Of a DNA stretch of 64,000 nucleotides, positions 35,099 to 36,206 are shown in pieces (the stretch's first letter is position 1; each line of letters starts with the position of its first letter). Location of the stretch: positions 8,329 to 72,328 of IMG/VR virus record IMGVR_UViG_3300037420_001376. The stretch is one strand, 5' to 3'. This stretch comes from a virus. Lineage: Duplodnaviria > Caudoviricetes. The notes under the pieces were generated by a model. That model was not told where the DNA came from, did no database searches, and saw only the letters and a list, made by a program, of their open reading frames with translations. Position numbers and translations under genes: made by a program.

Positions 35099-35179
35099 GA
35101 TGTTACCTCCAAAATTTCTTGAATGATTTTTGCGAACGTCGAGCCTGTAGGCTAGCCCACACTTAATCAGTTTAACCCC

Positions 35180-35209
35180 TTGCGCTAGCACATACTCATG
35201 CACTATCGT
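35180..35209 (+). promoter_or_regulatory. Candidate sigmaA-type promoter for the ncRNA
   Basis: TTGCGC (35180-35185), 18-nt spacer, TATCGT (35204-35209); predicted +1 near G35217, the first base of the first hairpin. Confidence 0.45.
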
Positions 35210-35216
35210 AGGTATC

Positions 35217-36173
35217 GCTGTTGATTGAACGGGTCACAGCAAACCCGGTGAGAACACGAAAGACGGCAGAGGCATCCCCGAAGCACGCGCTCACCGGGTC
35301 TGAACTTTCATAACTCCATCGAAAAGCTTTGGGGCATGGCCCTATAACTACGGGCAACCGTAGGAAAGGCTGGCATGACACCCGGCCACTACACCCTCTC
35401 GCCTTCGGGCGAAAGGCTCTGTAGCAAACCATGCACGGCAGTCCTTAAAAATTCAACTGAGGTTGGATTTGGATATCGACCGGAACTGTGTGAAACACCA
35501 ACTAGCGTAAAAAACTAGAGTTTCAGCCATTGCGAGAATGCGGCAAGTTGGCAGCAGGGAAAAGGAAGATAATCTTGGAGTGCGGGGAACGTTTTTAAAA
35601 CTGCGAGTAGGCATACAAGTGGGCGTTTCAGGAAATTCTGGGCTAGGCAGGCATGTCTAGGAAGTACAGAAAAGTACAGAGAAAGTAGACCGCAAATCGA
35701 AATCTCCGTTGGCGTGAAGCATTCCGTAGCTTAAAAGGGTACGGAACTTCATGGGGAAGCACGTCAACAGTCCGGAGTTATCCGTTAAATATCACACGCT
35801 GTGTTAGCTCAATTTGGCGAGAGCATTCTGTTAGGGACAGAAATGTTGGTGGTTCGATTCCTCCACACAAAAAGCAAAAGTCTTTCCCCTTCGTTAACGA
35901 AAGCGTCATCTAAGCCGTAGCGCGTAAGCGAACTACGGAATCTCTGAGCCGCAAGCAATATGGGATTTTCATAAACAAGTAGTTGTAGGCAGTGGGCGGC
36001 CACCTATTGTTGAAACGAAAGTTGTGGAGTAGTTAACGAGAGAAAACGAGTGGTTTACGTTCCCCACTAAAAACTACTTCGGTAGGTTTGAAAAGGAAAA
36101 CAAACCGGGCGTGGTGATTACAAGTGAGAGCTTGTGGAAAAGTTGCTAAACCATAAGGCAACGAAAGATCACT
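35217..36173 (+). ncRNA. Candidate large structured ncRNA (GOLLD/ROOL-like class) with embedded tRNA-like domain
   Basis: About 1.1 kb without a credible ORF; many hairpins and junctions; cUUCGg x2, GCAA, GTAA and GAGA tetraloops and G-U pairs valid only on +; ends at a terminator. Confidence 0.72.
35798..35872 (+). tRNA. Degenerate tRNA-Pro-like element, anticodon AGG
   Basis: D-arm GCTC/GAGC, anticodon stem TTCTG/CAGAA with loop TTAGGGA, T-loop TTCGATT; only 5 of 7 acceptor pairs, no CCA. Confidence 0.7.
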
Positions 36174-36206
36174 AAAAGAGGCGGGTATTCTCACCGCCTC
36201 TTTTTT
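36174..36206. terminator. Bidirectional intrinsic terminator
   Basis: AAAAGAGGCGG / CCGCCTCTTTTTT; T-runs on both strands, between the ncRNA (+) and gene 36232 (-). Confidence 0.85.

What the first reader, a model, noticed from the sequence alone, without database searches (positions are those of the whole stretch)
35798..35872. Embedded tRNA-Pro-like domain with unusual AGG anticodon and broken acceptor end
Seen: intact D-arm, anticodon arm (loop TTAGGGA, anticodon 35833-35835) and T-arm (one T-T mismatch), but pairs 1:72 and 2:71 are mismatched and there is no CCA. It lies on the opposite strand from the two canonical tRNAs. Established: bacterial tRNA-Pro normally uses UGG/GGG/CGG with the same TTNGGGA-type loop; A34 anticodons are rare in bacteria apart from tRNA-Arg(ICG). 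Inference: a tRNA-Pro(UGG) derivative kept as a structural module, processing signal or anticodon-nuclease decoy inside the large RNA. If processed and charged it would read CCU, an AT-rich Pro codon, matching the bias of the UUU and UAA tRNAs.
Basis: partly seen in the sequence, partly recalled or inferred. Interest (0 to 1): 0.7.

Follow-up and report, generated by a model that had tools for sequence, protein, structure and literature searches.

The report
tRNA-like insert inside phage GOLLD RNA
The flagged 75 bases are a real tRNA-shaped module in the known variable linker of a giant cage-forming phage RNA (GOLLD); its frayed acceptor end and odd AGG anticodon are common for such inserts, so it is probably not a working proline tRNA.

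Summary
ARAGORN calls tRNA-Pro(AGG) at 35798-35872 (+), and Rfam's tRNA model gives 41.5 bits (cut-off 29). D and anticodon arms are intact, the T stem has one U·U, pairs 1:72 and 2:71 are G·A and C·A, and no CCA is encoded.

The "large RNA" is a GOLLD RNA (RF02032, 191.7 bits), about 35320-36206. The host phage is a 72-kb uncultured, integrase-free relative of mycobacteriophage Patience. The element fills the variable linker (J13/15), where published work already reports tRNAs and pseudo-tRNAs.

I parsed about 27 linker inserts from other GOLLD RNAs. In the 19 aligned, D, anticodon and T stems stay paired (92-96% of cells) but the acceptor stem does not (65%). Pair 2:71 is broken in 13 of 19, and seven inserts have no acceptor stem at all. 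Position 34 looks unconstrained (T6 A5 C5 G2). Mycobacteriophages Rey and Estes show the same double terminal mismatch.

Best reading (about 0.6): a tRNA-shaped module that stays tethered in the GOLLD transcript. Descent from tRNA-Pro(UGG) and CCU decoding are not supported.

This is a new member of a known kind. The scan holds 48 notes matching GOLLD, tRNA, linker and embedded, in at least 44 genomes; the eight shown all describe GOLLD RNAs with linker tRNAs.

The parts
35320..36206 (+). Full GOLLD RNA gene (about 885 nt). It runs antisense to 64 of the 69 ORFs called in the window.
   Evidence: Rfam RF02032 covers 35707-36197. The 5' domain is conserved with four other GOLLD RNAs from about 35326 onwards (alignment A2). 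The 3' end is set by the hairpin plus T-run. The 5' end is approximate, and no sigma-70-type promoter was found by the scan, which started at 35100.
35707..35770 (+). Hairpin that opens the Rfam model (positions 1-62). It carries the internal loop GGGGAAGC and immediately precedes the linker.
   Evidence: cmscan alignment. It is 83% identical to the same hairpin in cluster M mycobacteriophages.
35753..35758 (+). 5' strand (GGGGAA) of a pseudoknot that closes the linker into a loop.
   Evidence: It pairs with TTCCCC at 35884-35889. The pairing covaries across 17 loci: mean helix 6.6 bp against 4.8 when partners are swapped among loci (highest of 200 swaps 5.5).
35771..35797 (+). 5' part of the variable linker, with a small 4-bp hairpin (35773-35784).
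   Evidence: This region is an insertion relative to the Rfam consensus. The hairpin appears in the fold of 35765-35880. L013 and L122 have a hairpin in the same place.
35798..35872 (+). The flagged tRNA-like module. Acceptor strands are 35798-35804 and 35865-35871 (5 of 7 paired). The D arm is 35807-35824, the anticodon arm 35826-35842 (anticodon AGG at 35833-35835), and the T arm 35848-35864 (one U.U).
   Evidence: ARAGORN; Rfam tRNA 41.5 bits; structural parse.
35872..35880 (+). Conserved anchor AAGCAAAAG that starts the GOLLD 3' domain. It overlaps tRNA position 73.
   Evidence: It is the highly conserved block AAAGCAAAAGUCU of the Rfam consensus. It was used to find homologues.
35884..35889 (+). 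3' strand (TTCCCC) of the linker-closing pseudoknot.
35872..36197 (+). Conserved GOLLD 3' domain.
   Evidence: Rfam RF02032 alignment. nhmmer with a 12-sequence profile gives 193.6 bits.
36178..36206 (+). Final GOLLD hairpin (GAGGCGG / 9-nt loop / CCGCCTC) followed by TTTTTT. It is a likely intrinsic terminator.
   Evidence: Direct reading. The terminator scan did not call it, and its loop limit is 8 nt.

Best explanation
The element is the tRNA-shaped insert of a phage GOLLD RNA. It is transcribed on the + strand as part of a roughly 885-nt RNA and lies in the variable linker between the 5' and 3' domains. A covarying pseudoknot closes that linker into a loop. In the solved GOLLD cages the linker points into the cage interior (published; inferred to apply here).

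The module keeps the D, anticodon and T arms and the invariant elbow nucleotides. Its acceptor end is frayed: G1.A72 and C2.A71 are unpaired, position 72 is A rather than G, and no CCA is encoded. Its wobble base is an A that bacteria do not normally use for proline.

I therefore think it is not matured by RNase P and RNase Z into a charged tRNA-Pro. Instead it stays covalently tethered, giving one copy per GOLLD chain inside the cage, as a tRNA look-alike. It most likely descends from a tRNA gene that once sat in this loop.

Shown here: location, anatomy, and the family-wide pattern of arms kept while the acceptor and wobble positions are relaxed.

Inferred: lack of processing and charging, placement inside the cage, and any binding partner such as a tRNA-recognising host protein or the ribosome.
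For: - Location: the GOLLD match is 191.7 bits, and the tRNA falls in the unpaired, AU-rich linker columns of the model.
- Same slot in relatives: about 27 linker inserts were parsed, falling into roughly 20 lineages. They include L009, L013, L122, L110, cluster M mycobacteriophages and prophages, L245, L265, L249/L296, L306, L278, L299, L280/L246, L235 and L276.
- Pairing by helix: on the 19-sequence alignment A1, the acceptor helix is paired in 65.4% of cells. The D helix is 94.7%, the anticodon helix 91.6% and the T helix 95.8%. Pair 2:71 is unpaired in 13 of 19 and pair 1:72 in 8 of 19.
- Missing acceptor: seven inserts have no acceptor stem at all (L013, L122, Bongo, MrMagoo, L227, L249, L296), yet their other three stems are intact.
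- Fold under selection: within lineages the stems change by compensatory substitutions. Examples are L221 against L223 (D and anticodon stems), L249 against L296 (anticodon and T stems), and Rey against Estes.
- Control: free-standing tRNAs in the same GOLLD-bearing loci have 7 of 7 acceptor pairs in 135 of 168 cases, and only 1 of 168 has 5 of 7 like this element. The ARAGORN-called embedded ones reach 7 of 7 in 2 of 13.
- Same defect elsewhere: Rey and Estes show the identical double mismatch at 1:72 and 2:71.
- Wobble base: position 34 among 18 representatives is T6, A5, C5, G2. U33 is kept in 16 of 18 and a purine at 37 in 18 of 18.
- Weak fold: z = -0.32, against -2.9 for the phage's tRNA-Lys.
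- Literature: tRNAs occur in the GOLLD linker and the linker lies in the cage interior (PMC12286853). An 'inhibited storage' role has been proposed for an embedded tRNA (PMC12990946). A pseudo-tRNA inside a Mycobacterium GOLLD gave no separate northern signal while GOLLD itself was detected (PMC6582537).
Against: - No expression or processing data exist for this RNA.
- A 5-bp acceptor helix with an A73 discriminator, U33, G35, G36 and G37 is still present, so partial recognition by tRNA enzymes cannot be excluded.
- Some GOLLD linkers hold canonical-looking tRNAs. L280 and L246 carry tRNA-Arg(UCU) with a 7 of 7 acceptor, an encoded CCA and a conserved anticodon. L235 carries tRNA-Asn(GUU). The slot therefore does not in itself imply a non-functional tRNA.
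- No close relative of this phage was available. Patience has no GOLLD, and G001 and G002 are only distant phages. Selection on this particular copy could not be measured.
- This copy is the lowest-scoring of the inserts that cleared the Rfam tRNA cut-off (41.5 bits against 49.8-66.2; L013 gave no hit at all), which also fits decay.
- Eleven of the homologous inserts were found with a T-loop pattern, which biases T-arm conservation upwards.
Confidence: 0.6

Rival explanations
1. It is a working phage tRNA gene carried within the GOLLD transcript. RNase P and a 3' nuclease would cut it out, and the linker-closing pseudoknot could hold the two GOLLD halves together. CCA would be added, and the tRNA would supply decoding of CCU (with A34, or I34 if deaminated) for an AT-richer phage in a GC-rich host.
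For: - It passes ARAGORN and the Rfam cut-off.
- U33, G35, G36, G37 and A73 are present.
- Some GOLLD linkers contain canonical tRNAs with CCA, namely L280 and L246.
- The phage's other two tRNAs read A/U-rich codons that it uses heavily: AAA is 61% of Lys codons and UUA is the commonest Leu codon at 30%. T is the commonest third base.
- The phage's nearest cultured relatives infect Mycobacterium.
- The pseudoknot across the linker would tolerate excision.
Against: - Two terminal acceptor mismatches occur in only 1 of 168 free-standing tRNAs of comparable loci.
- Position 72 is A. Bacterial ProRS uses G72 and A73 (established knowledge), and the tRNA-Pro genes in related loci have C1:G72.
- There is a U.U in the T stem and the fold is weak.
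- A34 outside tRNA-Arg(ACG) is rare. In the controls only Arg-ACG and Thr-AGU carry it.
- CCU is not the preferred Pro codon: 28% against 31% for CCA.
- The wobble position looks unconstrained across inserts.
Confidence: 0.17
2. It is a neutral, decaying relic. A tRNA gene once lodged in a linker that tolerates any sequence, it has lost function, and it is eroding with no role in GOLLD.
For: - The linker is variable and tRNA-free in many GOLLD lineages (L004, L005, L106, L185/L163 and L102 types).
- Bongo, MrMagoo, L013 and others show progressive loss of the 3' acceptor strand.
- This copy has the lowest tRNA score among the inserts that cleared the Rfam cut-off, a T-stem mismatch, and no thermodynamic signal.
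Against: - D, anticodon and T stems are almost perfectly paired in all inserts, including those with no acceptor.
- These stems change by compensatory substitutions within lineages.
- U33 and a purine at 37 are kept in 16 and 18 of 18 representatives.
- Uniform decay would not spare three helices while removing one.
Confidence: 0.2
3. It is a phage attachment site (attP) core that copies part of a host tRNA gene.
For: Phage attP sites often overlap tRNA genes (established knowledge; also mentioned in PMC10865867).
Against: - No tyrosine integrase (PF00589) and no serine recombinase (PF00239) is present in the complete 72-kb record.
- The element is a whole cloverleaf in a conserved slot of a structured RNA, not a 3' tRNA fragment beside an integrase.
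Confidence: 0.01

Closest known systems
tRNAs and pseudo-tRNAs in the J13/15 linker of GOLLD RNA (Rfam RF02032; PMC12286853; PMC12990946; PMC6582537, which cites Weinberg 2009 for the predicted tRNA)
   Same: - Same RNA family: 191.7 bits against a cut-off of 150.
- Same slot, between the hairpin that opens the Rfam model and the AAGCAAAAG anchor.
- Same strand as GOLLD.
- Same phage setting.
- A pseudo-tRNA with no separate transcript has been reported for a Mycobacterium GOLLD.
   Different: - The anticodon is Pro-type AGG. The published example is described as tRNA-Phe or as a pseudo-tRNA.
- The host is an uncultured Patience-like phage, and Patience itself has no GOLLD.
- This GOLLD is not inside a tRNA array. 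The phage's only other tRNAs lie about 11 kb away on the opposite strand.
Linker inserts of cluster M mycobacteriophages: annotated tRNA-Ser in Rey, tRNA-Leu(tag) in Estes, and tRNA-?(Gln|Pro)(tg) in prophiGD54-2 and prophiT49-2
   Same: - The GOLLD hairpin before the linker is 83% identical.
- Rey and Estes have the same double mismatch at 1:72 and 2:71 with intact D, anticodon and T stems.
- The prophage inserts have a 2:71 mismatch and a loop containing UGG.
   Different: - Their anticodon loops differ: GGA, UAG, and 8-nt loops.
- Rey and Estes also lack the canonical T-loop U55 and the D-loop GG, both of which the window element keeps.
Canonical tRNAs in GOLLD linkers (L280 and L246 tRNA-Arg(UCU) with CCA; L235 tRNA-Asn(GUU))
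   Same: Same slot and orientation, and the same D-arm type (TA GCTC ... GAGC).
   Different: - L280 and L246 have a fully paired acceptor stem and an encoded CCA. L235 has one internal 4:69 mismatch and no encoded CCA.
- All three carry standard anticodons.
- Between the L280 and L246 relatives the anticodon loop is conserved (1 of 7 positions differ) while the stems covary.
- The window element has none of these marks of a working tRNA.
Bacterial elongator tRNA-Pro
   Same: Cloverleaf, U33, G35, G36, G37 and A73.
   Different: - Position 72 is A, so the C1:G72 pair is missing.
- Two terminal acceptor mismatches.
- A34 instead of U, G or C.
- The body is not specifically Pro-like.

Membership tests
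GOLLD RNA (Rfam RF02032) | Covariance-model score above the curated gathering score. | tested here: met
   191.7 bits against 150, model positions 1-416 of 416, E = 1.8e-52.
GOLLD RNA (Rfam RF02032) | Conserved 3' domain, more variable 5' domain, and a variable linker between them. | tested here: met
   - 3' domain: nhmmer gives 193.6 bits.
- 5' domain: aligns with four other GOLLD RNAs from about 35326 (A2).
- Linker: 35771-35871 is an insertion relative to the model.
GOLLD RNA (Rfam RF02032) | Phage or prophage setting, often near tRNA genes. | tested here: met
   It is an IMG/VR virus record of 72,328 bp, rated 100% complete by CheckV. Its primase is 57% identical to that of phage Patience. 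Two tRNAs are present in the window but lie about 11 kb away.
GOLLD RNA (Rfam RF02032) | Self-assembly into an RNA-only cage. | not testable with these tools
   This is known only for env-38 and the S. agalactiae GOLLD (PMC12286853, PMC12990946).
GOLLD-linker tRNA-like insert | A cloverleaf or partial cloverleaf on the GOLLD strand, between the pre-linker hairpin and the AAGCAAAAG anchor. | tested here: met
   Position 73 abuts and overlaps the anchor at 35872. About 27 homologous inserts, in roughly 20 lineages, have the same placement.
Functional bacterial tRNA-Pro | tRNA covariance model and ARAGORN call. | tested here: met
   41.5 bits against 29; ARAGORN calls Pro(agg).
Functional bacterial tRNA-Pro | Acceptor stem of seven pairs. 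| tested here: not met
   5 of 7, with G1.A72 and C2.A71 unpaired. Among free-standing tRNAs of GOLLD loci, 135 of 168 have 7 of 7 and only 1 has 5 of 7.
Functional bacterial tRNA-Pro | ProRS identity set: G72 and A73 with G35 and G36 (established knowledge; C1:G72 is seen in the control tRNA-Pro genes). | tested here: not met
   A73, G35 and G36 are present. Position 72 is A and position 1 is G.
Functional bacterial tRNA-Pro | Anticodon UGG, GGG or CGG. | tested here: not met
   The anticodon is AGG. In the controls, A34 occurs only in Arg-ACG and Thr-AGU.
Functional bacterial tRNA-Pro | Processed, CCA-tailed and aminoacylated in vivo. | not testable with these tools
   This needs RNA sequencing, northern blots or enzyme assays.
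attP tRNA fragment | An integrase or recombinase encoded by the phage. | tested here: not met
   PF00589 and PF00239 give no match in the whole record, and the controls ring.

The most novel reading that the evidence does not exclude
GOLLD cages display a set of tethered, processing-resistant tRNA mimics, one per chain. In some lineages their anticodon loops turn over quickly. In the cluster M lineage, 4-6 of 7 loop positions differ while the anticodon and D stems barely change. The reason would be that the mimics act as decoys or sponges for host tRNA-targeting defence enzymes or other tRNA-binding factors. The frayed acceptor end would then be selected, to stop RNase P and RNase Z from cutting the cage RNA.
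Probability: 0.1. Interest if true: 0.75.

Novelty: new member of a known kind. Interest (0 to 1): 0.25.

Why it matters
GOLLD RNAs form large RNA-only cages whose function is unknown, and what sits in the interior linker is one of the few clues. This case adds one more example. Its comparison set gives a small but testable generalisation. Most linker tRNAs keep the tRNA body while losing the acceptor end and any constraint on the wobble base, whereas a few remain canonical tRNAs with CCA. That argues that the cage often carries tethered tRNA look-alikes rather than releasable tRNAs. It also warns that several phage tRNA annotations are probably not decoders, for example tRNA-Ser in Rey, tRNA-Leu(tag) in Estes and tRNA-Gln(ttg) in prophi86-1. 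As a single locus it is ordinary for the family.

Tried and rejected
- Pro(UGG) ancestry. Body identity to free-standing tRNA-Pro is 0.57-0.73, no better than to Ala, Leu or Lys (up to 0.75) or to other embedded inserts (up to 0.77). This is inconclusive, so the ancestry claim is dropped.
- attP site. Rejected, because the phage has no integrase or recombinase.
- Orthologue-level test of selection on this copy. Not possible. Patience has no GOLLD. The phages holding the most similar GOLLD RNAs (G001, G002) share only 31-41% primase identity and lack synteny.
- Genome-contig scan with the anchor pattern. It gave 79 hits, none of which passed my nhmmer filter as GOLLD. My two nhmmer profiles also missed three GOLLD-like loci (L235, L246, L276), which were later recovered through the pseudoknot pattern. 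The survey is therefore incomplete.
- Promoter and terminator scan. It found nothing.
- Pfam on nine neighbouring ORFs. No hits.
- Shared loop motif. Loop positions 4-7 read [T/G]GGA in the window, L013, L009, L221 and L223. This is too few independent lineages to interpret.
- Morgado et al. 2020 (PMC7549688) could not be read. Its content is cited only through papers that quote it.
The parse was redone from the files.

Full report
**What is there**

ARAGORN finds three tRNAs in the window. One is tRNA-Pro(agg) at 35798-35872 on the + strand. The other two, Lys(ttt) and Leu(taa), are on the - strand. Rfam's tRNA model scores the flagged interval at 41.5 bits (cut-off 29, E = 2.2e-05), against 66.8 and 60.1 bits for the other two.

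- The acceptor strands GCTGTGT and ACACAAA leave G1.A72 and C2.A71 unpaired.
- The D stem has 4 of 4 pairs and the anticodon stem 5 of 5.
- The anticodon loop is TTAGGGA, with AGG at 35833-35835.
- The T stem has one U.U (35850/35862).
- The discriminator is A, and no CCA is encoded.

The missing CCA means little, because the phage's own tRNA-Leu lacks one too. The cloverleaf is not thermodynamically favoured: z = -0.32, against -2.9 for the phage's tRNA-Lys.

**The host RNA**

The same Rfam scan places the element inside a full-length match to GOLLD (RF02032, 191.7 bits, 35707-36197, +). In the model alignment the tRNA is an insertion in the long unpaired, AU-rich stretch. That stretch lies between the first hairpin and the conserved AAAGCAAAAGUCU block.

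Alignment with four other GOLLD RNAs shows a conserved 5' domain starting near 35326 (A2). The RNA ends in a 7-bp hairpin followed by T6 at 36178-36206. The gene is therefore about 885 nt. It covers several small - strand ORFs that must be spurious, and it runs against 64 of the 69 ORFs called in the window.

The record is a complete 72-kb IMG/VR virus. Its primase is 57% identical to that of mycobacteriophage Patience. It has no integrase or serine recombinase. Patience itself has no GOLLD.

**What is already known**

- Kretsch et al. [quoted passage not shown] They also state that the unresolved linker lies inside the 14-mer cage.
- A 2026 review (PMC12990946) describes a tRNA-Phe in J13/15 of a Mycolicibacterium GOLLD and proposes "inhibited storage".
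- Behra et al. (PMC6582537) report a pseudo-tRNA within the GOLLD gene of M. aubagnense. It gave no northern signal of its own, while GOLLD was detected.

The kind of feature is therefore published. This scan's own notebook holds 48 notes matching GOLLD, tRNA, linker and embedded, in at least 44 genomes; the eight notes shown all describe GOLLD RNAs with linker tRNAs.

**Which tRNA occupies the slot in homologues**

I collected GOLLD loci with four pattern scans and one blastn search:
- the anchor pattern;
- the pre-linker hairpin;
- a T-loop next to the anchor;
- blastn against the phage collection.

I filtered the hits with nhmmer.

Many lineages have a short linker with no tRNA: the L004, L005, L106, L185/L163 and L102 types.

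The other linkers hold a tRNA-like insert in exactly this position; I parsed about 27 of them, from roughly 20 lineages. The anticodon loops read as Gln-CUG, a Pro-UGG-like loop, Arg-UCU, Asn-AUU, His-AUG, Met-CAU, Ser-UGA, Ser-GGA, Leu-UAG, Ile-AAU, Lys-CUU, Glu-CUC, Tyr-AUA and Asn-GUU. Several loops have 8 nt.

On the 19-sequence alignment A1, pairing differs sharply by helix:

| Helix | Cells paired |
|---|---|
| Acceptor | 65.4% |
| D | 94.7% |
| Anticodon | 91.6% |
| T | 95.8% |

- Pair 2:71 is broken in 13 of 19 sequences and pair 1:72 in 8 of 19.
- Seven inserts (L013, L122, Bongo, MrMagoo, L227, L249, L296) lack the acceptor stem altogether, yet keep the other three stems.
- Rey and Estes carry the same double terminal mismatch as the window.
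- As a control, 135 of 168 distinct free-standing tRNAs from the same loci have 7 of 7 acceptor pairs, and only one has 5 of 7. Among the ARAGORN-called embedded ones, 2 of 13 reach 7 of 7. The Fisher p of 3e-6 is not corrected for shared ancestry.

**Selection on the fold**

Within lineages the stems change by paired substitutions:
- L221 against L223, in the D and anticodon stems.
- L249 against L296, with 4 of 10 positions changed in each of the anticodon and T stems, all still paired, even though this lineage has no acceptor stem.
- L280 against L246.

The anticodon loop behaves differently from lineage to lineage:
- It is conserved in L280/L246, which have a full acceptor plus CCA and so look like real tRNA-Arg genes.
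- It is also conserved in L249/L296.
- In the cluster M lineage (L228, L245, Rey, Estes) it differs at 4-6 of 7 positions, while the D stem is unchanged and the anticodon stem differs at only 1-3 of 10.

Across 18 representatives, position 34 is T6, A5, C5, G2. U33 is kept in 16 and a purine at 37 in all 18. A34 is thus not special to this locus. It also appears as AUU, AUG, AAU and AUA in other linkers. Free-standing tRNAs in the controls show A34 only in Arg-ACG and Thr-AGU.

**Architecture**

The internal loop of the pre-linker hairpin (GGGGAA, 35753-35758) is complementary to the segment just after the anchor (TTCCCC, 35884-35889). This pairing covaries across 17 loci: the mean helix is 6.6 bp, against 4.8 with partners swapped. 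The linker is therefore a closed loop. This explains why it tolerates inserts. It also means that excising a tRNA would not necessarily separate the two halves.

**Interpretation**

The most likely reading (about 0.6) is a tRNA-derived module that remains part of the GOLLD transcript and is not a decoding tRNA-Pro. Three things count against maturation and charging:
- the double terminal mismatch;
- A72 where bacterial ProRS needs G72 (established knowledge);
- the weak fold.

The family-wide pattern shows that the body, not the acceptor end or the wobble base, is what is kept.

A processed, working CCU reader (about 0.17) is not excluded. The phage is AT-richer than its probable actinobacterial hosts, and its two canonical tRNAs read AAA and UUA, which it favours. 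However, CCU is only 28% of its Pro codons.

A neutral relic (about 0.2) fits this copy's low score but not the preserved helices.

Descent from tRNA-Pro(UGG) could not be shown.

**Limits**

- There are no expression data.
- No close relative of this phage was available.
- The survey of GOLLD loci is incomplete, and part of it was ascertained through the T-loop.
- The statistics are not corrected for lineage.
- The Morgado 2020 paper could not be read.

Noticed in passing
window 35753-35758 with 35884-35889; also loci L102, L110, L235, L246, L265, L276, L306 and others: The internal loop of the hairpin before the linker pairs with the segment right after the AAGCAAAAG anchor, and the two covary across 17 loci. 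This closes the linker into a loop. It probably corresponds to a pseudoknot already drawn for GOLLD, but Rfam's structure line does not include it.
   Followed up: partly
L331 (Rey) 563-636; L333 (Estes) 596-667; L335 (prophi86-1) 582-655; L221 (prophiGD54-2) 1622-1693: Deposited cluster M mycobacteriophage annotations list the GOLLD-linker inserts as tRNA-Ser, tRNA-Leu(tag), tRNA-Gln(ttg) and tRNA-?(Gln|Pro)(tg). They have broken acceptor ends, class I bodies or 8-nt loops, so they are probably not decoders. Small 'hypothetical protein' CDSs (for example Rey gp107 and PEGLEG_94) overlap the GOLLD 5' domain.
   Followed up: partly
L280 385-457 (-) and L246 (linker upstream of the anchor): Two related GOLLD RNAs carry a canonical-looking tRNA-Arg(UCU) in the linker. 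It has a 7 of 7 acceptor, G73 and an encoded CCA. The anticodon is conserved while the stems covary. Some linker tRNAs are therefore probably real, releasable tRNAs.
   Followed up: partly
L249 4061-4133 (-) and L296 12279-12350 (+): These two inserts have no acceptor stem. They keep a Lys-type CUU anticodon loop (1 of 7 positions differ) while their anticodon and T stems change by compensatory substitutions. The loop sequence itself seems to matter in this lineage.
   Followed up: no
window 35196-35432, 35453-35614, 35809-36003, 36033-36194 (all - strand): Four small open frames lie on the opposite strand within the GOLLD gene, so they are almost certainly not genes. The 78-aa frame at 35196-35432, the only one of the four tested, had no Pfam match.
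   Followed up: partly
L226, L229, L231, L232, L233 (cluster M phage and prophage loci): Free-standing tRNA-Thr(AGU) genes with A34 occur in five of the cluster M loci; all but one have a fully paired acceptor stem. This is the only non-Arg A34 among the 168 control tRNAs.
   Followed up: no
anticodon loops of window 35831-35837, L013, L009, L221, L223: Loop positions 4-7 read GGGA or TGGA in five inserts of the GOLLD subclade closest to the window, although their anticodon stems differ completely. There are too few independent lineages to tell shared ancestry from a conserved contact.
   Followed up: no
L013 4327-4411 (-): This insert has a Pro-type UGG loop and an extra 5-bp arm in the variable region, like a class II tRNA. 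It has no 3' acceptor strand, and neither ARAGORN nor Rfam calls it.
   Followed up: partly
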